A stretch of DNA of 64,000 nt from Candidatus Poseidoniales archaeon (GCA_003602515.1 QQSB01000005.1:88247-152246); one strand, 5' to 3'; positions 21,122-56,718 are shown, numbered from the stretch's first letter. Notes: generated from the sequence alone by a model not told the origin. Translations and numbers: made by a program.

Positions 21122-22216
21122 ATGTCGTTCCTCTATCCGCTAATATCGATGGAGAGGCGGTTGCCAATCATCGATACCGGAGAAGATTCGTCCGGAGGTT
21201 GCGGGAGCACTGGTCCGGCAGGGCCTCTTGAAAAAAGGAAAAACATGAGGAAGAGGCTTCCTTCGTGGTTCAAGACAGCCCTTCCAACTGGCTTGGCTCA
21301 GTCGAGATATAACGACACAAAGAGCAATGTGACGACTCATGGATTGAATACAGTCTGCGAGGAAGCACGATGCCCGAACGTTCACGACTGCTGGGGCAGG
21401 GGGACAGCCACCTTCATGGTTGCAGGTGAAGTTTGCACAAGGGGTTGCAGATTCTGTGCAGTCGGAACAGTGAAGTCCCCCCCCGAACTAAATGCAGAAG
21501 AACCCGGTGAGTTGGCTGATGCAGTCTACAATATGGGGCTGAGCTATGCAGTAATTACTGTTGTAAACAGGGATGATCTTGAAGACGGCGGTGCAATGCA
21601 CTACCGAGAATGTATCTCAGAGGTTGCAAACAAGAATCCCGGTGTTGGATTGGAATTGCTTTGTTCGGACCTAGATGGGAATCTAGAGGCTCTTGAGCAA
21701 ATGCTGGATGGGTTGCCTCTGAGGGTTTTCGCGCATAATGTCGAGTGCGTGCCGCGTCTAGACGGAATAGTTCGCGACCCTAGGGCCTCCTTCGGGCAAT
21801 CTCTAGAAATTCTGAGGAAGGCTAAGGAGGTCCGACCTGATGTACTTACGAAGACTAGTCTAATGGTCGGACTGGGAGAATCGGATGGCGAGGTAGAAGA
21901 GGCGATGAGGATGGTTCGCGAGGCTGGGGTCGATATGATCACCCTGGGGCAGTATCTACAGCCCAGCTACAGGCACCTTCCTGTGGACAGATTTCCTGAA
22001 CCAAGCATTTTTGCAGACTGGGATCGCCTAGCCAGAGACCTAGGTTTCGGTGCAGTGGCCAGCGGACCTCTGGTTAGGTCGAGCTACAGGGCTGGCCTTC
22101 TTTGGGAGGAGGCAATGGGAGGCGAGCCTGTGGTTACTCGAGACTCAACTGGTTCAGCGGTTAGCCACGTCCAGTCACAGAAGAGATTAGTTGTTGTAGA
22201 GGTTGATAATTCATGA
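21122..22216 (+). CDS. lipA: Lipoyl synthase
   Basis: The motifs are TVCEEARCPNVHDCW and the radical-SAM CTRGCRFCAV. The true start may be an internal ATG at 21149 or 21245. Confidence 0.92.
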   Translation: MSFLYPLISMERRLPIIDTGEDSSGGCGSTGPAGPLEKRKNMRKRLPSWFKTALPTGLAQSRYNDTKSNVTTHGLNTVCEEARCPNVHDCWGRGTATFMVAGEVCTRGCRFCAVGTVKSPPELNAEEPGELADAVYNMGLSYAVITVVNRDDLEDGGAMHYRECISEVANKNPGVGLELLCSDLDGNLEALEQMLDGLPLRVFAHNVECVPRLDGIVRDPRASFGQSLEILRKAKEVRPDVLTKTSLMVGLGESDGEVEEAMRMVREAGVDMITLGQYLQPSYRHLPVDRFPEPSIFADWDRLARDLGFGAVASGPLVRSSYRAGLLWEEAMGGEPVVTRDSTGSAVSHVQSQKRLVVVEVDNS

Positions 22217-22234
22217 TAAGCGGAGGGATGGGTC

Positions 22235-23470
22235 ATGGCACCTAGGGACACTGACGGGAAAATTCACGTTCCTGACGCCCCATTCAGGCCGGGTGAGGAA
22301 GCAAGTTTCGAGAACTGGCCATGGAAACCCGGGGATTTACCAATGCCTGATCCCAAAAATTGTCATTTTCAAGATACAGTTGATCTAGCTAATGGGCTAG
22401 TTAGGGTGCTTGATGACGATGGCAATGCCTCCGGGGAATGGGACCCGGGGCTCACTTCGGAACAACTCCTATCAGGCCTGGAGCATATGGTTAGGTTGAG
22501 GATCTTCGATGATAGGATGATGAAAATGCAGAGGACTGGCCTACTTTCATTCTACATGCGTTCACTAGGCGAGGAGGCAATTGCTATTGCTCAAACTATG
22601 GCATTGGAAGAGCAAGATTGGATTTTTCCATCTTACAGGCAGCCGGGTGCGCAATTCGTGAGAGGCAGGGATATGGTGAGCATGATTTGCCACTGCATAG
22701 GAAACGAAGAAGACAATATCAAGGGCAGACAGATGCCAGTGCACTATTCGTATAGAGAGGGGCGTTTCATATCGATTTCCAGCCCTGTTGGGACTCAGTT
22801 CAGCCAGGCCGTAGGAGTCTCCCTTGCATCGAGTTACAAGGGACTTGATGAAGTGACGATTACCTGGATTGGCGATGGGGCGAGTGCTGAAGGGGATTAC
22901 CACTATGCGCTGAACTTCGCTAGTGTGTTCAACGCCCCAGTAATACTGAACCTGGTGAACAACCAATGGGCAATATCCACTCATGCTAACTTCGCTACCG
23001 GAACGGGGAGTTTCGCATCTAGAGGGATACCCTTCGGACTTGCTTCCATCAGAGTGGATGGAAATGATTTCCTTGCACTATATTCTGTTACCAAGTGGGC
23101 TCGAGAGAGGGCTGCGGCAGGCTCTGGAGCGACACACATAGAGGTCCTTACCTACAGAACTGGAGCGCACAGCAGCAGCGACGACCCCAGTAGATATAGG
23201 CCCAAGAACGAGCATACCAAGTGGCCCGGCGGCGACCCTGTAGATCGGTTGAAAGAGCACCTGATTAAATTGGGAGAGTGGAGCTTGGATCAGCACAAAG
23301 AACTGGAGGAGAGGATTGACGGAGAGGTGATTGATGCGTACAAAGAGGCCGTGAAATTCGGAGATCTAGCCAATGGCCCATATCCCTCTGCGGATACCAT
23401 TTTCACAGAGGTTTACGAAGAAATGCCTTGGCACCTTAGGGAGCAGCATGACGAGATGATGGGGGGATGA
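22235..23470 (+). CDS. 2-oxoacid dehydrogenase E1 component alpha subunit (BCKDH/PDH type)
   Basis: The TPP motif is GDGASAEGDYHYALNFASVFNAPVILNLVNNQWAIS. Typical YR.GAHS.SDDP is present. Confidence 0.9.
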   Translation: MAPRDTDGKIHVPDAPFRPGEEASFENWPWKPGDLPMPDPKNCHFQDTVDLANGLVRVLDDDGNASGEWDPGLTSEQLLSGLEHMVRLRIFDDRMMKMQRTGLLSFYMRSLGEEAIAIAQTMALEEQDWIFPSYRQPGAQFVRGRDMVSMICHCIGNEEDNIKGRQMPVHYSYREGRFISISSPVGTQFSQAVGVSLASSYKGLDEVTITWIGDGASAEGDYHYALNFASVFNAPVILNLVNNQWAISTHANFATGTGSFASRGIPFGLASIRVDGNDFLALYSVTKWARERAAAGSGATHIEVLTYRTGAHSSSDDPSRYRPKNEHTKWPGGDPVDRLKEHLIKLGEWSLDQHKELEERIDGEVIDAYKEAVKFGDLANGPYPSADTIFTEVYEEMPWHLREQHDEMMGG

Positions 23471-24483
23471 AAATGGCAAATATGAATATGATTCAATCTT
23501 TGAACAGCGCTCTCGACAATATGTTAGATGGCGATCCAGATGTAATCATATTCGGAGAAGACGTTGGTTACTTTGGGGGGGTATTCAGAACAACTGATGG
23601 GTTACAAGAAAAGCATGGAAATCATCGTGTTTTCGACACGCCTCTTTCGGAAGGTGGCATCGCTGCAACCGCTTTTGGAATGGGATTAAATGGACTCAGG
23701 CCGGTGGTGGAAATCCAGTTTGCTGACTACATCTTCCCCGCTTATGATCAGATTGTGAACGAGATGGCAAAGGTGAGGCACAGGTCTGGAGGCGAGTTCT
23801 GGTCCCCTGTTACGCTAAGAACTCCGGCAGGAGGTGGGATTAGAGGCGGGCATCACCATTCACAATCCCCAGAGTCCCAATTCACACATACTCCAGGGCT
23901 CAAGATAGTTTACTGCTCAACACCATACAATGCCAAGGGTCTGCTAATTAGCGCTATTGAGAGCAATGACCCCGTAGTTTTCTTTGAGCCAAAGAGGTGT
24001 TATCGAGGACCTTTCTATGGAGACCCTCACAGCGTACCAACATGGGCCGAACATCCAGAGGCAGAAGTTCCCGAGAGCCACTACAGAATCCCCCTTGGTG
24101 AGGCGAGATTAGTACAACAAGGAAGCGATTGCACGGTAATCTCCTGGGGTGCTATGGTTCATGTTTGTGAGCAAGCAATTAGCGACAGTGGAGTATCATG
24201 CGATCTAATTGACCTGCAGACTCTTATTCCCTGGGACAAGGAGGTAGTAGTGGATTCGATCGAGAAGACAGGGAGATGTGTGATTGTCCATGAGGCCCCT
24301 AAAACTAGTGGATTCGGTGCAGAAATGGCAGCTTCTATACAGGAGAGGTGCTTCTACCATCTTGAGACGCCTATTGAGAGGGTGACGGGGTGGGATACAC
24401 CATTCCCCCATACTACTGAATGGGATTACATGCCCGGGCCATCTAGAATCGCAGCGGCGATAGTGAAAACACAGGAGGACTGA
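23467..24483 (+). CDS. 2-oxoacid dehydrogenase E1 component beta subunit
   Basis: FGEDVGYFGGVFRTTDGL and DTPLSEGGI are present. An ATGA overlap couples it to E1 alpha. Confidence 0.9.
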   Translation: MKMANMNMIQSLNSALDNMLDGDPDVIIFGEDVGYFGGVFRTTDGLQEKHGNHRVFDTPLSEGGIAATAFGMGLNGLRPVVEIQFADYIFPAYDQIVNEMAKVRHRSGGEFWSPVTLRTPAGGGIRGGHHHSQSPESQFTHTPGLKIVYCSTPYNAKGLLISAIESNDPVVFFEPKRCYRGPFYGDPHSVPTWAEHPEAEVPESHYRIPLGEARLVQQGSDCTVISWGAMVHVCEQAISDSGVSCDLIDLQTLIPWDKEVVVDSIEKTGRCVIVHEAPKTSGFGAEMAASIQERCFYHLETPIERVTGWDTPFPHTTEWDYMPGPSRIAAAIVKTQED

Positions 24484-24484
24484 G

Positions 24485-25783
24485 ATGGGAAATTTCGTGT
24501 TTAAGTTGCCTGATATCGGAGAAGGGGTGGTTGAAGGAGAAGTTGTCCAATGGCACGTCTCAGTTGGCGATTCGGTCTCCGAGGACGATCCACTTGTCGA
24601 TGTGATGACTGATAAGGCAACGGTGACAATTCCATCCCCTGAAAGCGGGGTAATCAGTTCTCTAAGTGGCGGAGTAGGAGATATGATTGCTGTTGGAACA
24701 ACTCTTCTCGAGATCGACACTGGGGGGGAAGTATCGGCGAGTGAGGGAGGAGGATCGGATGACGTTGACAAGCCAGCAGAAACGACTCCTGCCCCTGTCC
24801 CTGCCCCCGTCCCAATCGCTGCCGCGGACCCTGTCCCAACCCCTGTCCCGGACCCTGTCCCAACCGCTGCCGCTGCCCCGGCCCCAAAGGCGCCATCTCA
24901 ACCAGCAACTGGTCGGGTCCTTGCTAGTCCTGCGGTTAGAAAGCGGGCTAGAGAGAATGATGTTGATCTGTCAGCCGTTAGGGGATCGGGTCCGGCTGGT
25001 AGAATCAGGCATGCTGATTTGGATGCATTCATTGCCGCTGGAGGAGCAATTTCAGGTGCACCTCCTATTGCATACTCGGTTAAGAGAACCGAAGTTACTC
25101 CGGTGAAGGTAGTCGGACTCAGGCGCAAGATCTCAGAGCAAATGAGCCTAGCAAAGAGTAGGATTCCGCACTTCTCATACTTCGAAGAGGTAGACATTAC
25201 TGAGCTAGAGTCTTTGAGGCAGATACTCAACTCGACAAAAGACGAGACCCAACCGAAGCTGACATATCTCCCATTCATTATGCTCGCTCTAGGGAAGATA
25301 ATGCCTGAACATCCGGAATGCAATGCACATTTCGATGACGAGGGAGGAGTTGTTCTTAGGCAGGGAGCAGTAAACCTAGGTATTGCTACCCAGACTGAGC
25401 GAGGTTTGTATGTGCCCGTGGTTAAGCACGTTGAGGCTATGGATATCTGGAACGCTGCATCAGAAATGCAGAGAGTATCCGGTTCTGCGAGAGATGGCAC
25501 TGCTAGTCTAGACGAGCTTACAGGTTCCACCTTCACGATCACAAGCCTGGGGCGAGAGGGCGGCCTTGGAGCAACCCCAATTATTAATCATCCAGAGGTT
25601 TCCATACTTGGAGTGCACAAGGCAAGAGAGATGCCTGTTGTCAAGGATGGCAAGATAGTCATTAGGAGGGTTATGAATCTTTCAAGCGCCTTTGACCACA
25701 GGGTAGTCGATGGGGCTGATGGGGCTTCCTTGATTCAGCACCTCAAGAGAATGCTGGAAACCCCGGCACTCATTTTCATGTGA
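24485..25783 (+). CDS. Dihydrolipoamide acyltransferase E2 component
   Basis: The lipoyl domain carries DVMTDKATV. A P/A-rich linker follows, then the E3-binding segment LASPAVRKRAREN. The catalytic motif is DHRVVDGA. Confidence 0.92.
   Translation: MGNFVFKLPDIGEGVVEGEVVQWHVSVGDSVSEDDPLVDVMTDKATVTIPSPESGVISSLSGGVGDMIAVGTTLLEIDTGGEVSASEGGGSDDVDKPAETTPAPVPAPVPIAAADPVPTPVPDPVPTAAAAPAPKAPSQPATGRVLASPAVRKRARENDVDLSAVRGSGPAGRIRHADLDAFIAAGGAISGAPPIAYSVKRTEVTPVKVVGLRRKISEQMSLAKSRIPHFSYFEEVDITELESLRQILNSTKDETQPKLTYLPFIMLALGKIMPEHPECNAHFDDEGGVVLRQGAVNLGIATQTERGLYVPVVKHVEAMDIWNAASEMQRVSGSARDGTASLDELTGSTFTITSLGREGGLGATPIINHPEVSILGVHKAREMPVVKDGKIVIRRVMNLSSAFDHRVVDGADGASLIQHLKRMLETPALIFM
24773..24904 (+). 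repeat. Pro/Ala-rich low-complexity linker of E2 with a short tandem nucleotide repeat
   Basis: It encodes PAETTPAPVPAPVPIAAADPVPTPVPDPVPTAAAAPAPKAPSQP. The 14-nt GACCCTGTCCCAAC recurs at 24827 and 24851. Confidence 0.8.
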
Positions 25784-27228
25784 GGACTAAAATGGTAGAA
25801 TCACGCAAATGCCAGGTCTTGGTAATTGGTGCGGGGCCGGGAGGTTACGTGGCGGGAATACGTTCAGCGCAACTAGGTCTTGATACGATTGTTGTAGAGG
25901 GCGACAAGGCAGGAGGTACTTGCCTAATCAGGGGGTGCATCCCTAGCAAGGCAATTATCCATGCCGCAGAGAGGTTTGAGTCTCTACGCCAGCATTCTGC
26001 CGATGGGGGCCACATGGGACTTTCTGTCAAAGGTGAGGCCGAAGTTGACATGGTGGGATTGGTATCCTGGAAAGATTCCATTGTTGATAGGTTGAACAAG
26101 GGCGTCGAGGGGTTGCTGAAAGCGGCTGGTGCAGACCTAATCAAGGGATGGGCAAGATTCGAGGGGCCCAAGAGTTGCATCATAGATTCTGGTGCCGGGA
26201 GTGTGAAGATTGAGGCGGAGAATGTCATCATTGCTACCGGATCGAGCCATATTGATTTACCATTCATGCCATGTGATGAGGAGTTTGTCATTTCCTCTAC
26301 TGGTGCATTAGATCTAGAGGCACTTCCTAAGAGTGTTGCAATTGTCGGAGGAGGCTATATCGGCCTCGAATTGGGATGCGCCCTCGCTAAGCTTGGTTCC
26401 AAAATTACTGTCGTCGAGGGCATGAGCAGCGTTTTGGCAATAATGGACAAGGAAATTCGGAGACCACTGGAAATATGGTTGAAGAAACACAAGGTCACAG
26501 TCCATACCGATTCACTGGCCAGGGGTGTCGAAATCAAGGGAAGGGGTGCATCCAAAAAGGCTGAGTTGACATTTGAGAAAGATGGAACCGAACACAAGGT
26601 GAAGGTAGACAAGGTCCTTGTCACAGTGGGAAGGAAGCCCAATACCAAAGGATGGGGGCTAGAAAACACCGGAGTTAGGATGGATGGTTCCGGGCGCTTC
26701 ATCAGAACGGACAGGCAATGCAGAACATCAGTTCCGGGAGTATATGCAATTGGTGACGTATCTGGTGAGCCAATGCTAGCCCACAAGGCTAGTGCAGAAG
26801 GGGAGATGGTAGCCGAGATTATTGCTGGGCATAAAAGAGAATTCGACAAGATAGCTATCCCTGCAATAGTCTTTACCGAGCCCGAGATAGTATCTGTCGG
26901 CCTTACTCCCGATGAAGCCAAAGAAAGGGGCGAAGAGGTCATTGTAGGCAAGTTCCCACTTGCTGCAAATGGCAGAGCATTGAGTCTTGAGGCTGAGAAG
27001 ACCGGAGGTTTCATCCGAGTTACAGCCAGAGAGTCGGATCACGTTATCCTAGGCGTTCAGGCTGTGGGGAGTCACGTTGCAGAGTTGCACTCCGAATTCG
27101 TGTTAGCTCTAGAAATGGGGGCTTTGCTTGAAGACGTGGCCGGTACTGTGCACGCACACCCCACCATGTCCGAGGCGTTTCACGAGAGCGTTCTCAAGAC
27201 CCTGGGGCACGCCATTCACATCCAATGA
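25780..27228 (+). CDS. lpdA: Dihydrolipoyl dehydrogenase E3 component
   Basis: The FAD fold is VIGAGPGGY. The redox disulfide is GGTCLIRGCIPSK. The C-terminal motif is HAHPTMSE. Confidence 0.93.
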   Translation: MRTKMVESRKCQVLVIGAGPGGYVAGIRSAQLGLDTIVVEGDKAGGTCLIRGCIPSKAIIHAAERFESLRQHSADGGHMGLSVKGEAEVDMVGLVSWKDSIVDRLNKGVEGLLKAAGADLIKGWARFEGPKSCIIDSGAGSVKIEAENVIIATGSSHIDLPFMPCDEEFVISSTGALDLEALPKSVAIVGGGYIGLELGCALAKLGSKITVVEGMSSVLAIMDKEIRRPLEIWLKKHKVTVHTDSLARGVEIKGRGASKKAELTFEKDGTEHKVKVDKVLVTVGRKPNTKGWGLENTGVRMDGSGRFIRTDRQCRTSVPGVYAIGDVSGEPMLAHKASAEGEMVAEIIAGHKREFDKIAIPAIVFTEPEIVSVGLTPDEAKERGEEVIVGKFPLAANGRALSLEAEKTGGFIRVTARESDHVILGVQAVGSHVAELHSEFVLALEMGALLEDVAGTVHAHPTMSEAFHESVLKTLGHAIHIQ

Positions 27229-27911
27229 GGTTTCGGATGGGCGGAATCGACGTACTTAGGTGCGGGATAGTGAATTATCAAGTAATGGCTGAGTCGATGA
27301 AGGATCTTCAAAAAAAGAGGATTGCAGGAGAGATTAGTGATACCTTGATCTTCGTCCAGCATCCAGAGGTGGTGACAATTGGACCCAAGGCAGTCCGTGA
27401 TAATGTCGTTGTTGATGGATACCCGACTTGCCTGACCGACAGAGGCGGGGGAATTACCTGGCACGGGCCTGGACAACTTGTCGTATATCCAATTGTAAAA
27501 TGGGAGATTGGTGAACAGAGTGTCAGAGGGGTAATTGGGAGATTAGAAGACTGGGCGATAGCCGCTCTTGCTGAATGCGGCATTTCTGCTTACAAGAATG
27601 AGAAGATGCAAGGAGCTTGGGTGGATGGATTCAAGATTTGCTCAATCGGATTGTCATTCCTCCACTGGGTTAGCCGTCATGGGATGTCAATCAATATAGA
27701 AACCCCGGGGAAAAGGGTTCAGAATCTAGAATGCTGTGGCATTCCCGCGGGGACTCACACCAGCCTTTCGCACCTAGGGTATGAAAAAGACAAGCAGGGG
27801 CTCAAAATAGACTACAAGAGGATTGAGAAGAGCCTGAGGTTGACTTGTGAGGAGCACCTTGGTCGGGTTCCGAAGGATCCTGTAGATTGGAGTCCGGAGG
27901 CGATAGTTTGA
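27225..27911 (+). CDS. lipB: Octanoyl/lipoyl transferase
   Basis: RGGGITWHGPGQLVVYPI and FKICSIG are present. An ATGA overlap couples it to lpdA. Confidence 0.88.
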   Translation: MRFRMGGIDVLRCGIVNYQVMAESMKDLQKKRIAGEISDTLIFVQHPEVVTIGPKAVRDNVVVDGYPTCLTDRGGGITWHGPGQLVVYPIVKWEIGEQSVRGVIGRLEDWAIAALAECGISAYKNEKMQGAWVDGFKICSIGLSFLHWVSRHGMSINIETPGKRVQNLECCGIPAGTHTSLSHLGYEKDKQGLKIDYKRIEKSLRLTCEEHLGRVPKDPVDWSPEAIV

Positions 27912-50797: not shown

Positions 50798-51964
50798 ATG
50801 CCCGAGGGAAGTAACAATATCATCGACATCGATGATGGGTTGAGGATATTGGGAACGGCTCACGTAAGTAGTGAATCGGTTGAACTAGTACGAAGTCAGA
50901 TTGAGGATTGGGGGCCAGACTTGGTTGCAGTAGAGCTTTGTCCATCGAGACTGACTGCATTGACAAAACCGGACTCATTAGAATCTGAAGACCTATTGAA
51001 GATAATCAAAGAGGGGAGGTCGGCGATGATACTCCTGCAATCGGCACTTGCAGCACAACAGAGGAGGATGGGAGTCACATCCGGAGAAAAACCAGGGGCA
51101 GAGCTCCTGGCAGCCGTTAACGCAGCCGAGGACTCAGGAGTTCCAGTGGAAATGATCGATAGAGACGTGGTTGTAACCCTAAGGAGGGCATGGAGAAAGA
51201 TGGGCATCATAGAGAAATGGAGGATTTTGAACGCCCTTCTGTGGGAAGAAGACGATGATGAGGTTTCCATAGACGATGTACTCGGGGACTCAGACCTCCT
51301 CAGCAGTATGATGGAGGAAGCAAGGGAGATTGCTCCCGGTGCAGGTGAGGTCCTGATCGACGAACGCGACACATTCCTAGCAGGAAGGATTCAGCAGATC
51401 CGAGGAAAGGGAAAGATTCTGGCAGTAATCGGTGCTGGGCACCTAAGTGGTGTTGCGCACAACCTTGGTGAGCCTGCCATCGAAACTACATCGAAGTTGG
51501 CTGAGCTAGGCAAGGAACCTCCCAAGTCCATCTGGCCCAGGATGCTGATGGCTGCAATTCCAATCTTCCTCTTTGGAGCAGTTGCTTGGATGGTTGCAAA
51601 TGGGGAGATGGATGCTCTGAAGCAGACTGCTCAGACATGGTTGATCCTCAATGCAGCGCTGGCCGGAGCAGGGGTGCTGATCGCGAGGGGGCATCCGCTC
51701 TCTATTCTGGTAGGAGCCATTGCATCCCCAATCACATCGCTAAATCCGACTCTGGCAGCTGGATGGTTCGCGGGCTACACGCAGTTGAAGGTAGCATCCC
51801 CCACAGGCAAGGATGCCCAGGACTTCCTGGTCCTCGACGAGGTGTCCCTATTCTGGAAGAATCGTGTGGGAAGGGTCCTGATGGTCACCGCAATGGGAAA
51901 TCTCGGTTCAATGGCGGGTGCTTGGCTTGCGGGTGGGGCCATTCTTGGAATGCTCCTCGGTTGA
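50798..51964 (+). CDS. TraB/PrgY/GumN-family protein with a C-terminal membrane domain
   Basis: ILGTAHVSSESVELV, ELC.SR and GAGHLSGV are present. C-terminal hydrophobic helices follow. Confidence 0.75.
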   Translation: MPEGSNNIIDIDDGLRILGTAHVSSESVELVRSQIEDWGPDLVAVELCPSRLTALTKPDSLESEDLLKIIKEGRSAMILLQSALAAQQRRMGVTSGEKPGAELLAAVNAAEDSGVPVEMIDRDVVVTLRRAWRKMGIIEKWRILNALLWEEDDDEVSIDDVLGDSDLLSSMMEEAREIAPGAGEVLIDERDTFLAGRIQQIRGKGKILAVIGAGHLSGVAHNLGEPAIETTSKLAELGKEPPKSIWPRMLMAAIPIFLFGAVAWMVANGEMDALKQTAQTWLILNAALAGAGVLIARGHPLSILVGAIASPITSLNPTLAAGWFAGYTQLKVASPTGKDAQDFLVLDEVSLFWKNRVGRVLMVTAMGNLGSMAGAWLAGGAILGMLLG

Positions 51965-52002
51965 CGCCAACCATTTTGCGTCGACTCCTCATCGCAGAGA
52001 TT

Positions 52003-53415
52003 GTGACGAACTACGGATTCGTGATAAACAACAAGACTTGCATCGGGTGCCATGCTTGCACCGTAGCCTGCAAGTCGGAGCATGATATCCCGATCGGAGT
52101 AAATAGGACACATGTCAAGTACATCGAAAAGGGTTCTTATCCCGATTCGACCAGAGAGTTCAGCGTCCATAGATGCAATCATTGCGAGGACTCGCCATGT
52201 ACGACTATCTGTCCGACCACGGCTCTTTTCACAAGATCCGATGGGATTGTCGATTTCGATGATGAGAGGTGCATAGGGTGCAAGTCGTGCATGCAAGCTT
52301 GCCCCTATGATGCGCTTTACATCGACCCCAACAAGGGTACTGCAGCCAAATGTAATTACTGCGCGCACAGAATCGAGCATTCATACGAACCGGCATGTGT
52401 AATCGTCTGCCCGACTGAGTCCATCGTCTCGGGGGACTTGGACGACCCCAACTCCGCGATTTCCAATCTTGTCGCCTCGCATGAGACGACCGTTAGGAAG
52501 CCCCATTCGGGAGCTACTCCCAACCTGTACTATATTGACGCAAGCGAGGAGATGCTCGATCCATACGCAACGGAGGTAACTGGATCAGGCATGTGGACTG
52601 AACAGGCTTTCGGGGTAGGGCACTTCGCAAAGTACGCAGATAGCAGATTGGATAGTGCAGACACGACTTCAATGATAGTGCAACTGGCCCTGGAAAAGAA
52701 GGCAAAGCAGTCATCCCCTCGAGATCAGGCGATCATCAGAGATGTGATGGAAAGACTGTCGGAAGAGACGGGTGGTGCAAAGCGAAGTTATGACCAGCCA
52801 AGCAAGGGAATCCTATGGGGTTGGGAGGTTTCTGCTTACATCTGGACTAAGGGAATTGCAGCGGGAACCTACGTGGTAGCGGCACTAGCAATGCTTTCTG
52901 GGTTTGCCGAGATGAGCGATGGCCTATGGACGATGACGCTCGGAGTCAGTATCGTTTTCCTGGCAATCACTGGAATCCTACTCGTAATGGACCTGGACAG
53001 GCCCGAGAGATTCCTCTACGTCATGCTTAGGCCTAATTGGGATTCTTGGCTGGTCAAAGGCGCATACATCCTCTCCGGTTTTGGTGGAATTCTAGCCCTT
53101 AGTGCTGGAGTCATTATCCTGGACTTGGACAGGTCTTTGCTCACATATCTGGCGATTGCAGGCGTCCCCCTGGCGTTGCTAACAGGGGTTTACACAGCTT
53201 GGCTGCTGATGCAAGCCAAGGGTAGATCCTGGTCAGAAGATTCTCTTCTACCTGCAAAATTTCTAGTTGAAACCGTAGCTATCGGGGCAGCAGTTTTCTT
53301 CCCCCTCTCTTTGATGGAGCCACTCTCCTTCGCTATCGGAGGGGCAGTCCTGCTTGGGATTCTAGCTCATGACAATAAATTGGTGATGAAGCCGCAGATG
53401 GAACCGTTGTTGTGA
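52003..53415 (+). CDS. 4Fe-4S (PsrB/DmsB/TtrB-like) subunit fused to a shortened NrfD/PsrC-like membrane anchor
   Basis: There are four Cys clusters: CIGCHACTVAC, CNHCEDSPCTTIC, CIGCKSCMQAC and CNYC...CVIVC. About 5-6 TM helices follow, with the NrfD-like WGWEVSAYIWTKGIAAG and DLDRPERFLYVMLRPNWDSWLVKG. The start is uncertain: GTG 52003 or TTG 51961. The ORF-track extension to 51586 overlaps the TraB gene. Confidence 0.8.
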   Translation: MTNYGFVINNKTCIGCHACTVACKSEHDIPIGVNRTHVKYIEKGSYPDSTREFSVHRCNHCEDSPCTTICPTTALFTRSDGIVDFDDERCIGCKSCMQACPYDALYIDPNKGTAAKCNYCAHRIEHSYEPACVIVCPTESIVSGDLDDPNSAISNLVASHETTVRKPHSGATPNLYYIDASEEMLDPYATEVTGSGMWTEQAFGVGHFAKYADSRLDSADTTSMIVQLALEKKAKQSSPRDQAIIRDVMERLSEETGGAKRSYDQPSKGILWGWEVSAYIWTKGIAAGTYVVAALAMLSGFAEMSDGLWTMTLGVSIVFLAITGILLVMDLDRPERFLYVMLRPNWDSWLVKGAYILSGFGGILALSAGVIILDLDRSLLTYLAIAGVPLALLTGVYTAWLLMQAKGRSWSEDSLLPAKFLVETVAIGAAVFFPLSLMEPLSFAIGGAVLLGILAHDNKLVMKPQMEPLL

Positions 53416-53424
53416 GGTGCTAGA

Positions 53425-56151
53425 TTGGGCAGGACATTCATAGAAAAAGTAGCGCAGAGGCTGCGAATTATTCCTAATTTGGACAGGCCGGATGCTGTGG
53501 GCGCTAGTGGTCCACTGAGGAACTTCCCCGAACCGGAAGGATGGCACGACCACGTGGAGCTTGATGCTAACCAGTGGCCGAAGATGATCGAGAAGCGTTA
53601 CTCCTTGGTTCCGACGACATGCTTCAACTGCGAGTCTGCCTGTGGCCTACTGGCATATGTGGACAAGGACTCGGGGCAGGTATCGAAGTTCGAGGGCAAT
53701 CCTCACCATCCCGGAAGCAGAGGAAGGAACTGTGCGAAGGGACCTGCTACGATCAACCAGATCAATGACACAGAGAGAATCCTACACCCAATGAAGAGGG
53801 TTGGCCCAAGGGGAGAGGGAGGCTGGGAGAGAGTTACCTGGGACGAGGCGTTGGATGAGATATCCGCCAAGATCAGGGGCTCCCTGAAGACGGGAGCCAA
53901 GGATAGAGTCGTTTATCACGTCGGGCGTCCGGGTCACGAGGGCTATACAAATCGGATTCTGAAGGCCTGGGGGGTCGATGGGCACAACAGCCACACCAAT
54001 ATCTGCTCCGCCGGTGCGAGGACCGGTTATGCGCTCTGGCACCGTCACGACAGGCCATCGCCCGATCATGCCAATGCCAAAGTTATCCTCCTGACATCCT
54101 CGCATTTGGAGACCGGGCACTACTTCAACCCGCATGCTCAAAGGATTCTGGAGGGGATGATGGATGGAGCTAAGCTCATCGTGCTGGACCCTAGGCTCTC
54201 CAACACTGCTGCGATGGCGGACCATTGGCTTCCGACTTGGCCCGGATCAGAATCGGCCCTCTTCCTAACTTGGGCAAACATGATTCTAGAGAAGGGTCTG
54301 TTCGACAAGGACTTCGTAGAGAAATGGGTGAACTGGGAGGAGTGGTTGGAGGCCGATTACCCAGAAGAGCCTAGGGAGTTTGATCGTTTCATCGAGCTTC
54401 TGATGGACCAGTATTCTCCCTACACCCCAGAGTTCGCCGCTAAGGAGTGCAGGATTCCAGTTGAGCAGGTAATTGAAGTTGGGGAGATTGTGGCGAATGC
54501 TGGAAGCAGGCTGGCCACTCACGTGTGGAGGGCTGCTGCCATAGGAAATCTCGGTGGGTGGCAGGTCAGCAGAACCCTGCATCTACTCAATGTCCTTACT
54601 GGTAGCGTGGGCACGGAAGGGGGCACTTCACCCAACTCTTGGTCTAAGTACAAGCCCGATCTCTTCGACGTCCCCCCCGATCCGGATGGTTGGAACGAGT
54701 TGCACTTCCCGCCCGAGTACACGATGTCCCACTACGAAATGAGTCACATCCTGCCTCACCTAGTGAAAGAAGGCAGGGGCGAGATGGATGTTTACTTCAC
54801 CAGAGTATTCAACCCTGTTTGGACCTATCCGGACGGTTTCTCGTGGATCGAGATGCTGCAGAACAGGGATGCAGTGGGATGCCACGTCGCACTGACCCCG
54901 ACTTGGAACGAGACTGCATTCTTTGCGGACTACGTACTGCCAATGGGGCACGCTTCAGAGAGGCACGACGTCAACTCATACGCAACCAGTTCGGGTAAGT
55001 GGGTAGCCTTCAGGCAACCTGTTCTGAGAGAATTTGCGCGCAGAGAGGGAAAGGAAGTCGAATTCACTCACGAGGTCAATCCCGGCGAGGTTTGGGAGGA
55101 GGACGAATTCTGGAACGAGCTTTCATGGAGGATAGACGATGGAACGATGGGAATCAGGGAGCACTTCATGAGCCCGTACCGAGAAGGAGAGAGGATAACT
55201 ATCGACGAATACTACCAGTACATGTTCGAGAGGATTCCGGGACTCCCCGAAGCCGCGGAGGCCGAAGGTACCGATCCTCTAGGCTACATGAGGAAACACG
55301 GTGCTTTCCTGATCGAGGAGGCTACCTACAACAAGCACGAAGAGGATGGGTGGCCCACTCCGAGCGGAAAGCAGGAGATATACTCGAACAGCATGGTCGA
55401 GTTCGGATATCCTGAGCACTCCATACCCCACTACAGAGTAATGAGCCACGTCCATCCTGATAATCTGCAGGGCGAGGATGAGTACTGCCTACTTCCGAAC
55501 TTCCGCCTACCCCAGCACATCCACTCTCGCTCTGCTAATGCTAAATGGCTTGCAGAGATAGCCCATCGAAACCCCCTATGGGTGCACCCTAATGATGCTG
55601 ACAAGTTAGGGGTGAGCGAGGGAGGCCTGCTTAAGGTGGAGACGGAGATAGGCTGGTTCATTGACAAGGTCTGGGTTACTGAAGGCATCAAGCCAGGCAT
55701 CATCGGATGCTCACACCACATTGGTAGATGGAGGAGGAAGCAGGACTCAGGGAACAGGTACATGACCAACGAGGTCGAGATAGAGGACCTGGGCGAGGGA
55801 AGGATGAGGATGAGGACGGTCACAGGAGTCAGACCGTGGGAGTCTGACGACCCGGATACAAACAGAGTTTGGTGGAGGGATGGAGGAGTACATCAGAACA
55901 TCACCCATGCCGTTCAGCCAGACCCCATCAGTGGTGCGCACTGCTGGCTACAGAAGGTTAGGATATCGAGACCGTCCCATGGAGAGAAGTACGGGGACGT
56001 CGAGGTCGATACGAACAGATCGTTTGAGTACTACAAGAAGTGGAACGAAATGGCCAAGGAAAGAGAGGTTCACCCTCGTGGGGAAAGAAGGCCCTTGTGG
56101 ATGAACCGGCCACTGCCACCGAGGAAGGAACACTGGTTCATCAGAGAATAG
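53425..56151 (+). CDS. Molybdopterin (bis-MGD) oxidoreductase catalytic subunit, substrate unknown
   Basis: The N-terminal FeS motif is CFNCESACG-x27-C (NCAKG). Its size and collinearity fit the MopB superfamily. There is no twin-arginine motif. The start is TTG 53425 or ATG 53584. Confidence 0.85.
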   Translation: MGRTFIEKVAQRLRIIPNLDRPDAVGASGPLRNFPEPEGWHDHVELDANQWPKMIEKRYSLVPTTCFNCESACGLLAYVDKDSGQVSKFEGNPHHPGSRGRNCAKGPATINQINDTERILHPMKRVGPRGEGGWERVTWDEALDEISAKIRGSLKTGAKDRVVYHVGRPGHEGYTNRILKAWGVDGHNSHTNICSAGARTGYALWHRHDRPSPDHANAKVILLTSSHLETGHYFNPHAQRILEGMMDGAKLIVLDPRLSNTAAMADHWLPTWPGSESALFLTWANMILEKGLFDKDFVEKWVNWEEWLEADYPEEPREFDRFIELLMDQYSPYTPEFAAKECRIPVEQVIEVGEIVANAGSRLATHVWRAAAIGNLGGWQVSRTLHLLNVLTGSVGTEGGTSPNSWSKYKPDLFDVPPDPDGWNELHFPPEYTMSHYEMSHILPHLVKEGRGEMDVYFTRVFNPVWTYPDGFSWIEMLQNRDAVGCHVALTPTWNETAFFADYVLPMGHASERHDVNSYATSSGKWVAFRQPVLREFARREGKEVEFTHEVNPGEVWEEDEFWNELSWRIDDGTMGIREHFMSPYREGERITIDEYYQYMFERIPGLPEAAEAEGTDPLGYMRKHGAFLIEEATYNKHEEDGWPTPSGKQEIYSNSMVEFGYPEHSIPHYRVMSHVHPDNLQGEDEYCLLPNFRLPQHIHSRSANAKWLAEIAHRNPLWVHPNDADKLGVSEGGLLKVETEIGWFIDKVWVTEGIKPGIIGCSHHIGRWRRKQDSGNRYMTNEVEIEDLGEGRMRMRTVTGVRPWESDDPDTNRVWWRDGGVHQNITHAVQPDPISGAHCWLQKVRISRPSHGEKYGDVEVDTNRSFEYYKKWNEMAKEREVHPRGERRPLWMNRPLPPRKEHWFIRE

Positions 56152-56152
56152 A

Positions 56153-56377
56153 TCAGACCGAGGGTTCTGCTACTCCCCACTCCACGGCTTCCCATGCCCT
56201 TTCATGGACGTAGTAGAATCCCATCTTCAATGGGAACTCTATGACGATGAACCATCCTGCTGTCTCTATCTCACCGGTAAGCATCCCGGCCACTGCAGCC
56301 CCTGTCAAAGTCGCAATTATTCTCCAAGCAAATGTCTTTGCAAGGACGCGTTCCCTAGTGTACATTCCCATCGCCAT
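56153..56377 (-). CDS. DUF2061-family small membrane protein
   Basis: FAWRIIATLTG...FYYVHERAWEAVEWG is present. Confidence 0.65.
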   Translation of the reverse strand: MAMGMYTRERVLAKTFAWRIIATLTGAAVAGMLTGEIETAGWFIVIEFPLKMGFYYVHERAWEAVEWGVAEPSV

Positions 56378-56445: not shown

Positions 56446-56718
56446 CTAGGAAGGGGGAATAGCCGGAGTTGAACTCGGGTCTGTGGGATCGATATCTTCT
56501 AGGCCCCAGTCGCTCCAACTCCATCCCCTCTCATGGAAGTAGTACAGGATCATCTTCGTGAAGAGTTCGGTGGTTCCTACTGCTGCTCCCGCTGCCCAAC
56601 TGCCTGTCACTATCCTAGTGATGATTATAGTATCAAGCGTCCCTATAGTTCGCCATGAAATAGTCTTAGCGAGGCTTCTCTTTGCGGATGCGTGTCCGGT
56701 CCCTGGTATATGTGCCAT
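56446..56718 (-). CDS. DUF2061-family small membrane protein (paralogue)
   Basis: ISWRTIGTLDT...LYYFHERGWSWSDWG is present. Confidence 0.65.
   Translation of the reverse strand: MAHIPGTGHASAKRSLAKTISWRTIGTLDTIIITRIVTGSWAAGAAVGTTELFTKMILYYFHERGWSWSDWGLEDIDPTDPSSTPAIPPS

What the first reader, a model, noticed from the sequence alone, without database searches (positions are those of the whole stretch)
51961..56151. Atypical molybdopterin oxidoreductase: FeS subunit fused to a shortened NrfD-like anchor, catalytic subunit last, no Tat signals
The first gene fuses a four-cluster PsrB/TtrB-like ferredoxin domain to about 5-6 TM helices bearing NrfD signatures. Free-standing PsrC/NrfD anchors have about 8 TM helices. 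The 908-aa bis-MGD catalytic subunit follows after 9 nt.

The B-C-A order recalls ttrBCA, but neither the catalytic nor the FeS protein has a twin-arginine motif. The N-terminus MGRTFIEKVAQRLRIIP contains no RR. The active site would therefore face the cytoplasm, unlike known polysulfide, thiosulfate, tetrathionate and DMSO reductases.

Both genes appear to use non-ATG starts. The substrate cannot be inferred from the sequence.
Basis: partly seen in the sequence, partly recalled or inferred. Interest (0 to 1): 0.65.

Follow-up and report, generated by a model that had tools for sequence, protein, structure and literature searches.

The report
Cytoplasm-facing sulfite-oxidase-like molybdoenzyme of marine archaea
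This is the Marine Group II archaeal copy of a widespread but biochemically untested two-gene membrane molybdoenzyme, known in green sulfur bacteria as PSRLC3, which most likely oxidises sulfite to sulfate inside the cell; what is unusual here is a membrane anchor cut from eight to six helices.

Summary
The anatomy is real. Gene 1 (GTG 52003–53415, 470 aa, not TTG 51961) fuses a 16-Cys PsrB-type ferredoxin to an NrfD/PsrC anchor with six TM helices. Gene 2 (TTG 53425–56151, 908 aa) is a Cys-ligated bis-MGD subunit with an FS0 cluster motif, no Tat signal and no possible upstream start.

It is not a new architecture. The same Tat-less pair, fused B-C gene directly upstream of A, occurs in 64 of 70 informative related loci. 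These span Bacteroidota, Marinimicrobia, Chloroflexota, Acidobacteriota, Planctomycetota, Actinomycetota, haloarchaea and Chlorobiaceae. In Chlorobium it lies beside TauE and the dsr genes, which matches the two-gene "PSRLC3" that the literature infers to be a cytoplasmic sulfite oxidase.

Neighbours recur: persulfide dioxygenase-rhodanese, TusA, DsrE, TauE, ArsR/CsoR-type regulators and an sHdr-type lipoate set. One Poseidoniales relative carries ArsR–TusA–DsrE–PDO–BC–A–TauE.

Best reading is a sulfite:quinone oxidoreductase that works like SoeABC. The function is inferred and not assayed anywhere in this family.

Specific to MGII is a deletion removing TM7–8 of the anchor. Metatranscriptome contigs cover both genes and their junction. 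I could not obtain a reference SoeA sequence, so orthology to SoeA is untested.

The parts
52003..53415 (+). Gene 1: fused iron-sulfur / membrane-anchor subunit ('BC'), 470 aa, GTG start, TGA stop
   Evidence: Pfam Fer4_11 and NrfD in one ORF. The fusion is conserved in more than 100 MGII clusters and in 67 of 70 informative related loci. The start is fixed by in-frame stops upstream in close relatives.
52003..52548 (+). PsrB-type ferredoxin domain, 16 Cys for four [4Fe-4S] clusters
   Evidence: Aligned with PsrB 2vpw_B at E 8e-48. Cys positions. NCBIfam TtrB, NrfC and DsrO matches all fall below their cut-offs.
52549..52803 (+). Linker between the ferredoxin and membrane domains. Partly helical; length varies among relatives.
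   Evidence: Alignment A1. Low-confidence helices in the model.
52804..53412 (+). NrfD/PsrC-type anchor reduced to six TM helices (aa 268-299, 306-330, 349-372, 378-404, 416-437, 440-469). Predicted N-in, C-in.
   Evidence: Pfam NrfD matches profile positions 7-196 of 313. Hydropathy. AlphaFold pLDDT about 90. Foldseek hit to PsrC at E 7e-4. Positive-inside count 19 against 1. TM7-8 deleted relative to 8-TM relatives.
53413..53419 (+). TGAGGTG: the stop codon of gene 1 overlaps a Shine-Dalgarno-like GAGGTG ahead of gene 2
   Evidence: Present in 11 of the 12 MGII relatives compared (L025 has TGAGGGA), while the spacer and the relative reading frames vary. Translational coupling is inferred.
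53425..56151 (+). Gene 2: bis-MGD catalytic subunit ('A'), 908 aa, TTG start, no signal peptide
   Evidence: Three Pfam domains. An in-frame stop lies 9 nt upstream. No hydrophobic segment. 55-96% identical relatives.
53620..53733 (+). FS0 [4Fe-4S] motif: C66-x2-C69-x3-C73 ... C103
   Evidence: Pfam Molybdop_Fe4S4. Positions. C66, C69, C73 and C103 are invariant in alignment A3.
54004..54006 (+). Cys194, the predicted Mo ligand, followed by Ser
   Evidence: Aligns with the Cys of PsrA (S-L-C-T-A-P) and of acetylene hydratase (M-C-I-G). Invariant in A3. That those cysteines are the metal ligands is from my memory of the structure papers.
50798..51964 (+). Upstream TraB/PrgY-family membrane protein. 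A conserved neighbour in MGII. Any functional link is unknown.
   Evidence: Pfam. Found upstream of BC in 5 of the 11 MGII loci of the scan and elsewhere in 2 more. An RNA-Seq contig spans the TraB 3' end into BC. Noted together with these genes in PMC6741140.

Best explanation
The two genes encode a membrane-bound molybdoenzyme that faces the cytoplasm. It belongs to the complex iron-sulfur molybdoenzyme (CISM) class and is the Marine Group II member of the two-gene PSRLC3-type family.

**Proposed mechanism**
1. Sulfite made in the cytoplasm is oxidised to sulfate at the Cys194-ligated Mo-bisMGD centre of the 908-aa subunit. Possible sources are persulfide dioxygenase, sHdr/rDsr-type systems, or desulfonation of organosulfur compounds.
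2. The two electrons pass through FS0 and then the four [4Fe-4S] clusters of the N-terminal domain of the fused subunit.
3. [quoted passage not shown]
4. Substrate site and quinone site lie on the same side of the membrane, so this step is not electrogenic. Energy is conserved when the quinol is re-oxidised.

In MGII the anchor has lost TM7-8. This suggests the second helix bundle is dispensable for this reaction.

**Shown:** the domains, the cofactor motifs, the fusion, the lack of export signals, the predicted topology, the family membership, the gene neighbourhoods and transcription.

**Inferred:** the substrate, the direction of the reaction, the quinone site and the lack of ion translocation.
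For: **Architecture and topology:**

**Family:**
- 594 relatives were confirmed in species-representative genomes. The best 80 are 55-96% identical.
- The fused BC gene lies directly upstream in 64 of 70 informative loci.

**Sulfur neighbourhoods of relatives:**
- Poseidoniales L014: ArsR-TusA-DsrE-rhodanese/MBL (PDO)-BC-A-TauE.
- Marine bacterium L010: the same set plus a Na/sulfate-symporter family gene.
- L013: a lipoate-binding protein / LplA / radical-SAM set with TusA, typical of sHdr sulfur oxidation.
- Rhodococcus jostii pRHL3: MBL-fold proteins, DsrE, TusA, ArsR.
- Natrinema: rhodanese, TauE/SafE, MobA.
- Thermomicrobium: a CsoR-like regulator.
- Myxococcota: PDO and Sulf_transp.
- Chlorobium sp. 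N1: BC-A-TauE followed by DsrE, rhodanese, a CobB/CobQ-type amidase (DsrN-like), DsrC and a sulfite-reductase-family (DsrA-like) gene.
- A PDO-like gene lies within 7 kb in at least 24 of 80 loci.

**Literature:**
- PSRLC3 is a two-gene system of green sulfur bacteria inferred to oxidise sulfite (PMC5473276, PMC6338057, PMC9324843).
- Poseidoniales encode all four steps of Moco synthesis (PMC6461757).

**Expression:** metatranscriptome contigs cover both genes and their junction.
Against: - No member of this fused family has been assayed. PSRLC3's sulfite-oxidase role is itself an inference.
- The 64-kb window holds no PDO, TusA, DsrE or TauE gene and no Moco genes. The sulfite source in this lineage is therefore not visible here.
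- I could not obtain a reference SoeA sequence, so homology to the characterised SoeABC is untested.
- A published survey found SoeC only in Proteobacteria, Clostridia and Aquificae. That hints this family is a separate clade.
- TusA, DsrE and rhodanese neighbours would also fit a substrate carrying sulfane sulfur, such as persulfide, polysulfide or thiosulfate.
- The AlphaFold model of the ferredoxin domain failed (pLDDT about 25). How the domains dock is therefore not modelled.
Confidence: 0.6

Rival explanations
1. A cytoplasmic sulfur, polysulfide, thiosulfate or tetrathionate oxidoreductase. It would act on sulfane sulfur handed over by TusA, DsrE or rhodanese, rather than on sulfite.
For: - The best curated-model matches are PhsA for subunit A and TtrB for the FeS domain.
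- The closest solved anchor and FeS subunit are those of polysulfide reductase.
- Sulfur-transferase genes are frequent neighbours.
- The Aquifex enzyme now called SoeABC was first described as a sulfur reductase, as noted in PMC10100899.
Against: - All curated matches are far below their cut-offs: PhsA scores 194 against 694, TtrB 168 against 416.
- The carriers include aerobic heterotrophs.
- The most regular neighbours are a sulfite-producing dioxygenase and a TauE/SafE-family exporter.
- In Chlorobium the pair sits by the dsr genes, whose product is sulfite.
Confidence: 0.2
2. A DMSO/TMAO-type reductase used for anaerobic respiration, as suggested for MGII in earlier metagenome papers.
For: PMC6741140 reads the molybdopterin oxidoreductase, ferredoxin and TraB trio as a possible sign of DMSO respiration. 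There is a weak match to the DmsA/YnfE model.
Against: - The DmsA/YnfE score is 187 against a cut-off of 778.
- A Cys sits at the ligand position, whereas DmsA uses Ser (from my own knowledge).
- There is no Tat signal.
- The neighbourhoods of relatives are sulfur-oxidation genes, and no torD/dmsD-type chaperone was seen in the inspected neighbourhoods of the close family.
Confidence: 0.04
3. A formate dehydrogenase or another cytoplasmic dehydrogenase acting on a non-sulfur substrate. Public records name some homologues 'formate dehydrogenase' or 'anaerobic selenocysteine-containing dehydrogenase'.
For: Source names. Weak FDH-alpha model match. The closest solved catalytic subunit by sequence is acetylene hydratase, a cytoplasmic enzyme.
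Against: - The FDH models score 136 against 666 and 100 against 814.
- There is no selenocysteine.
- The ligand Cys194 is followed by Ser, not the His of formate dehydrogenases (from my own knowledge).
- Acetylene hydratase has no FeS or anchor partner.
- The gene neighbourhoods are sulfur genes.
Confidence: 0.05
4. An artefact: a sequencing frameshift fused two genes, or the truncated anchor marks a decaying pseudogene.
For: None found. The in-frame TGA between genes 1 and 2 looked odd at first sight.
Against: - The fusion and the 470-485-aa length are conserved across both MGII families at 70-99% identity.
- No indels appear in independent assemblies, and the region is transcribed.
- The relative frames of the two genes differ among relatives, so the in-frame stop is coincidence.
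Confidence: 0.01

Closest known systems
PSRLC3 (polysulfide-reductase-like complex 3) of green sulfur bacteria
   Same: - A two-gene system: a fused PsrB-PsrC-like protein and a Tat-less PsrA-like subunit.
- Chlorobium and Chlorobiaceae members are 55% identical to the window's catalytic subunit. They have the fused gene directly upstream, with TauE and dsr genes alongside.
- Papers describe PSRLC3 as two genes and as an inferred sulfite-oxidising system.
   Different: - The Chlorobiaceae anchors are 516-522 aa and are counted at 7-8 TM helices (8 in Chlorobium sp. N1). The MGII one has 6 and is 470 aa.
- The window has no adjacent sulfur genes.
- That the Chlorobium loci are exactly what was named PSRLC3 rests on the 'two genes' description and on my memory of Frigaard & Bryant 2008. 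I could not read the original paper.
SoeABC sulfite:quinone oxidoreductase (Allochromatium vinosum, Aquifex aeolicus, Ruegeria pomeroyi)
   Same: - A Mo-bisPGD subunit with FS0, a four-cluster ferredoxin and a haem-free NrfD-type anchor.
- The peripheral subunits are placed on the cytoplasmic (N) side and the anchor is inverted relative to Psr.
- A Cys ligand.
- It acts on sulfite produced in the cytoplasm.
   Different: - SoeABC has three separate genes, listed as soeA, soeB, soeC, and an 8-TM SoeC. Here B and C are fused, the order is BC-A, and the anchor has 6 TM.
- SoeC was found only in Proteobacteria, Clostridia and Aquificae. None of these appears among the best 80 relatives here.
- Sequence orthology was not tested, because no reference sequence was obtainable.
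Polysulfide reductase PsrABC of Thermus thermophilus (PDB 2VPW)
   Same: It is the closest solved structure for the ferredoxin domain (8e-48) and the anchor (Foldseek E 7e-4). It is one of the two closest for the catalytic subunit (9e-36).
   Different: Psr is exported by Tat and faces the periplasm. It has three separate subunits and an 8-TM anchor, and it works as a quinol-oxidising reductase.
Acetylene hydratase (PDB 2E7Z)
   Same: It is the best sequence match among solved catalytic subunits (2.6e-36). It is cytoplasmic, has a Cys ligand and has an FS0 cluster.
   Different: It is a soluble single-subunit, non-redox tungsten enzyme of 727 aa with no FeS or membrane partner. The match covers mainly the N-terminal third.

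Membership tests
Complex iron-sulfur molybdoenzyme (DMSO reductase / MopB superfamily) | Catalytic subunit with Molybdopterin and Molydop_binding domains and an N-terminal Cys4 FS0 motif | tested here: met
   Pfam E-values of 8e-21, 1e-13 and 4e-12. C66, C69, C73 and C103.
Complex iron-sulfur molybdoenzyme (DMSO reductase / MopB superfamily) | Four-cluster ferredoxin partner and haem-free NrfD-type anchor | tested here: met
   16 Cys, with a PsrB match at 8e-48. Pfam NrfD and a Foldseek hit to PsrC.
PSRLC3-type two-gene complex | Ferredoxin and anchor fused in one polypeptide, encoded next to the catalytic subunit | tested here: met
   fused in 67 of 70 loci and directly upstream in 64.
PSRLC3-type two-gene complex | Catalytic subunit without a Tat signal | tested here: met
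   No RR motif or hydrophobic region in the window protein or in the Rhodococcus, Thermomicrobium, Natrinema and marine bacterial members.
PSRLC3-type two-gene complex | Close homology to the green-sulfur-bacterial member | tested here: met
   55% identity over the full length to Chlorobium sp. N1 and two Chlorobiaceae MAGs. The same domain set is present.
PSRLC3-type two-gene complex | Association with genes that make or handle cytoplasmic sulfite or sulfane sulfur | tested here: inconclusive
   Met in relatives, including a Poseidoniales MAG. Not met in this window.
SoeABC | Three separate subunits SoeA, SoeB and SoeC, with an 8-TM SoeC | tested here: not met
   B and C are fused and the anchor has 6 TM helices. 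SoeC is described as having 8 TMH.
SoeABC | Peripheral subunits on the cytoplasmic (N) side | tested here: met
   By prediction only: no export signals, and a positive-inside count of 19 against 1.
SoeABC | Orthology of the catalytic subunit to A. vinosum, Aquifex or Ruegeria SoeA | not testable with these tools
   No reference SoeA sequence could be retrieved.
SoeABC | Sulfite:quinone oxidoreductase activity | not testable with these tools
   Needs an enzyme assay.
PsrABC / PhsABC / TtrABC reductases | Tat-exported catalytic subunit, and a score above the curated model cut-off | tested here: not met
   No Tat signal. PhsA scores 194 against 694, TtrA 97 against 1750, TtrB 168 against 416.
DmsABC / YnfEFGH | Score above the DmsA/YnfE cut-off, and a Tat signal | tested here: not met
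   A score of 187 against 778. No Tat signal.
Formate dehydrogenases | Score above the FDH model cut-offs | tested here: not met
   136 against 666 and 100 against 814. The sequence has Cys194-Ser195 at the ligand position.

The most novel reading that the evidence does not exclude
Marine Group II archaea, together with Marinimicrobia, Saprospiraceae, Flavobacteriaceae and others, oxidise cytoplasmic sulfite to sulfate with a fused two-gene enzyme. Marker-gene surveys of soeABC do not report it for these groups, so a large share of the ocean's sulfite-oxidising capacity is unrecorded.

In addition, the MGII enzyme works with a 'minimal' six-helix NrfD anchor. That would show that the second four-helix bundle, proposed to carry an ion pathway in this protein family, is dispensable for quinone reduction.
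Probability: 0.4. Interest if true: 0.55.

Novelty: new member of a known kind. Interest (0 to 1): 0.36.

Why it matters
If the inferred function is right, the most abundant planktonic archaea of the surface ocean can detoxify sulfite and gain electrons from it. The same would hold for several abundant bacterial groups.

Surveys that look for soeABC report it mainly in Alphaproteobacteria, Rhodobacterales and Oceanospirillales. They do not report it for MGII. Sulfur-cycle budgets drawn from such markers may therefore be incomplete.

The six-helix anchor is a natural truncation of the NrfD fold, which is otherwise described as having 8-10 helices. It is a handy test case for whether the second helix bundle is needed.

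The family also occurs in cultured strains: Rhodococcus jostii RHA1, Thermomicrobium roseum, Natrinema, Lutibacter and Flavilitoribacter. The function is therefore directly testable.

Tried and rejected
**1. Getting a bona fide SoeA sequence (failed)**
- The Dahl 2013 and Boughanemi 2020 papers are not held.
- tblastn against plasmids found only family members, Tat-bearing relatives or unrelated Mo enzymes.
- The cluster look-up of representatives gave no useful names.
- The single genome scan returned only the best 80 relatives, none from Alpha-, Beta- or Gammaproteobacteria or Aquificae.

**2. Phenylacetyl-CoA:acceptor oxidoreductase (PadBCD)**
I considered it from memory as another cytoplasm-facing membrane molybdoenzyme. 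No evidence was gathered for it and the neighbourhoods are sulfur genes, so I dropped it.

**3. Read-through or selenocysteine at the in-frame TGA between the genes**
Rejected. The relative frames differ among relatives.

**4. A Tat motif from the upstream TTG at 51961 ('ILRRLLIAEI')**
Rejected. That stretch carries stop codons in close relatives and has no hydrophobic region.

**5. 'FqoABC' of the NrfD review (template C. tepidum CT0494)**
Its conserved residues are numbered from about 16, so it is an unfused anchor and probably a different complex. Not pursued.

**6. AlphaFold model of the fused protein**
Only the membrane part is usable. The ferredoxin domain has pLDDT about 25 with the shallow alignment that was allowed. 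No conclusion was drawn on domain docking.

**7. Representative search**
- At 50% clustering the family collapses into one main cluster plus a few outliers.
- All ten of the 32-36%-identity full-length relatives that I read carry Tat signals.
- Two closer or similar relatives also carry Tat signals: P0247 (44%) and P0267 (32%).

Full report
**What is in the window**

The first ORF carries a four-cluster ferredoxin domain: Fer4_11 at 1.3e-22, 16 cysteines, and 8e-48 to T. thermophilus PsrB. An NrfD domain (2.7e-16) follows in the same ORF.

The second ORF is a 908-aa bis-MGD subunit with Molybdop_Fe4S4, Molybdopterin and Molydop_binding domains. Its FS0 cysteines are C66, C69, C73 and C103. Cys194 aligns with the cysteine of PsrA (SLCTAP) and of acetylene hydratase. 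It is invariant across the family.

No curated NCBIfam model is passed. PhsA scores 194 against 694, DmsA/YnfE 187 against 778, FDH-alpha 136 against 666, and TtrB 168 against 416.

The window comes from a Poseidoniales (Marine Group II) archaeon. This is shown by the names attached to near-identical proteins and loci and by archaeal housekeeping genes nearby, such as eRF1, aTrm56 and class I LysRS.

**Gene boundaries**

Gene 1 starts at GTG 52003, not TTG 51961.
- Most homologues are 470 aa.
- PsrB aligns from residue 17 of the longer reading.
- The close relatives L019, L021 and L022 have in-frame stop codons in the 51961-52002 stretch.

The 'RR' in that stretch is therefore not part of the protein.

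Gene 2 can only start at TTG 53425.
- An in-frame TGA lies 9 nt upstream.
- The conserved N-terminal motif (FIEK...IP) begins three residues after the start.
- Most MGII relatives have ATG at the same position.

In 11 of the 12 MGII relatives compared, the stop of gene 1 is embedded in TGAGGTG, a Shine-Dalgarno-like sequence (L025 has TGAGGGA). This suggests translational coupling. The two genes share a frame in the window but not in several relatives, so read-through has no support.

**Topology**

Neither protein has a Tat or Sec signal, and the catalytic subunit has no hydrophobic segment at all.

The anchor has six TM helices by hydropathy and in the AlphaFold model, whose membrane part has pLDDT about 90. 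That part's only significant Foldseek hit (E 7e-4) is PsrC.

With the ferredoxin domain inside, the predicted cytoplasmic loops hold 19 Lys/Arg and the outer loops hold 1. The family-invariant residues of the anchor lie in those cytoplasmic loops: DLxRPxRF...SWLxxGxY and YTxxLxxQxxGR. This fits a quinone site and FeS interface on the cytoplasmic face. That is the inverted orientation already proposed for SoeC.

**The fusion is real and the truncation is MGII-specific**

The fused protein occurs in more than 100 Poseidoniales clusters. A scan of species-representative genomes confirmed 594 relatives.

Among the best 80, 70 loci have enough upstream DNA to judge. Of these, 67 have the fused gene, and in 64 it lies directly upstream.

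Bacterial versions in that scan are 503-564 aa, and those in the other bacterial and haloarchaeal loci inspected are 490-591 aa; nearly all have 8 TM helices. All MGII versions, from both Poseidoniaceae and Thalassarchaeaceae, are 470-485 aa with about 6. The alignment shows an internal deletion of about 76 columns that removes TM7-8 but keeps the conserved C-terminal PQxxPL tail.

Contigs from metatranscriptome libraries cover the TraB-BC junction, the BC-A junction and the A gene. They show no indels.

**What the family is**

Relatives at 55-68% identity occur in Marinimicrobia, Saprospiraceae and Lewinellaceae, Flavobacteriaceae, Cyclobacteriaceae, Planctomycetota, Acidobacteriota, Chloroflexota, Calditrichota, 'Deltaproteobacteria' and Chlorobiaceae. 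Cultured examples in this set are Lutibacter aestuarii, Gaetbulibacter and Flavilitoribacter nigricans. Plasmids of Rhodococcus jostii RHA1, Thermomicrobium roseum and several haloarchaea also carry it.

The neighbourhoods are consistent:

| Source | Neighbourhood |
|---|---|
| Poseidoniales MAG (L014) | ArsR-TusA-DsrE-rhodanese/MBL dioxygenase-BC-A-TauE |
| Marine bacterium (L010) | Same set plus a Na/sulfate-symporter-family gene |
| L013 | Lipoate-binding protein / LplA / radical-SAM set of sHdr-type sulfur oxidation, with TusA |
| R. jostii pRHL3 | MBL-fold proteins, DsrE, TusA, ArsR, Mrp/NBP35 |
| Natrinema | Rhodanese, TauE/SafE, Mrp/NBP35, MobA |
| T. roseum | CsoR-like regulator |
| Myxococcota | PDO and Sulf_transp |
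| Chlorobium sp. N1 | BC-A-TauE, then DsrE, rhodanese, a CobB/CobQ-type amidase (DsrN-like), DsrC and a sulfite-reductase-family (DsrA-like) gene |

All of these partners make, carry or export cytoplasmic sulfane sulfur or sulfite.

Published genome papers describe 'two genes encoding PSRLC3' in green sulfur bacteria. They call PSRLC3 an alternative, inferred sulfite-oxidising system. The Chlorobium loci match that description. I therefore file the window's pair as the MGII member of the PSRLC3-type family.

**How it most likely works**

It most likely works like SoeABC, the characterised cytoplasm-facing sulfite:quinone oxidoreductase.
1. Sulfite is oxidised at the Cys-ligated Mo centre.
2. 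Electrons run through FS0 and four [4Fe-4S] clusters.
3. They reduce a quinone at the cytoplasmic face of the anchor.

The substrate and the direction are inferred from context. The cofactor motifs, the topology prediction and the family membership are shown.

I could not test whether the family is orthologous to SoeA, because no reference sequence was obtainable.

Indirect hints suggest a separate clade. SoeC was reported only from Proteobacteria, Clostridia and Aquificae. None of these is among the best 80 relatives. Several SoeABC-defining features are also not met here: separate subunits and an 8-TM anchor.

**Rivals**

- **A cytoplasmic enzyme acting on sulfane sulfur** (polysulfide, thiosulfate, tetrathionate) is the serious alternative, given the sulfur-transferase neighbours and the Psr/Phs/Ttr-like best matches.
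- **The DMSO-respiration reading** of earlier MGII papers is poorly supported. The enzyme is not in the DmsA family by score, has a Cys ligand, lacks a Tat signal and sits in sulfur neighbourhoods.
- **Formate dehydrogenase**, a name given by some sources, is not supported by scores or by the Cys-Ser ligand context.
- **Artefact or pseudogene** is excluded.

**Limits in this window**

The 64 kb hold no PDO, TusA, DsrE, TauE or Moco genes. In this MGII sublineage the pair sits between a TraB/PrgY-like gene and DUF2061 genes. This arrangement is shared by its closest relatives, one of which (L022) keeps TauE after A. Poseidoniales as a group encode all four steps of Moco synthesis according to PMC6461757.

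**Verdict**

The architecture is a known, widespread, experimentally untested kind, not a new one.

The new points are modest. They are the assignment of the MGII genes to the PSRLC3-type, Soe-like sulfite-oxidising family rather than to DMSO reduction, and the MGII-wide six-helix anchor.

Noticed in passing
window 56165-56368 (-) and 56446-56718 (-): Two tandem small DUF2061 membrane-protein genes lie just downstream of the catalytic subunit, on the opposite strand. The second, 56165-56368, is below the ORF list cut-off and is 35% identical to the first. DUF2061 is found near the catalytic gene in 6 of the 11 MGII loci of the scan, just downstream of it in five.
   Followed up: partly
window 50798-51964 (+): A TraB/PrgY-family protein with a C-terminal membrane region is a conserved upstream neighbour in MGII, and an RNA-Seq contig runs from it into the ferredoxin gene. 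No such neighbour was seen in the bacterial loci. Its role is unknown.
   Followed up: partly
window 53413-53427: The stop codon of gene 1 is in the same frame as gene 2 and is embedded in TGAGGTG, a Shine-Dalgarno-like motif present in 11 of the 12 MGII relatives compared. In relative L019 the codon at the start position of gene 2 is ATA.
   Followed up: partly
L007 5224-6999 (Natrinema caseinilyticum plasmid): The haloarchaeal fused subunit carries a long acidic linker insertion with a Cys/Gly-rich stretch (GGGGCGCGGNCSCGGECSCGS) between the ferredoxin and membrane domains.
   Followed up: no
P0244 / L018 (Myxococcota MAG): This relative is 42% identical and has the same fused partner and a PDO neighbour. 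By eye, it has Asp rather than Cys at the position of Cys194, with a Cys six residues later. That may mean a different metal ligand.
   Followed up: no
L001/L031, L040, L084: Three of 70 informative loci have the catalytic gene without a fused ferredoxin-anchor gene upstream. L001 has a secreted 350-aa protein there instead. Where the partner is encoded is unknown.
   Followed up: no
P0247, P0267, L008 (Azoarcus sp. KH32C), L017: The nearest relatives outside the family (30-44% identity) carry Tat signals. Where the locus was read (L008 and L017, which encodes P0267), the B, C and A genes are separate and in the same B-C-A order; L008 and the Sulfurovum locus L009 also carry a TorD-like chaperone gene. 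The cytoplasmic fused form therefore has periplasmic cousins.
   Followed up: partly
window 7699-16659 (-) and 16735-19689 (-): Two very large ORFs of 2986 aa and 984 aa. The 984-aa one has no Pfam match. The 2986-aa one was not analysed.
   Followed up: no
window 21122-27911 (+): A tidy cluster of lipoyl synthase, 2-oxoacid dehydrogenase E1 alpha, E1 beta, E2 and E3, and a lipoate-protein ligase. It is housekeeping and is not linked to the finding.
   Followed up: no
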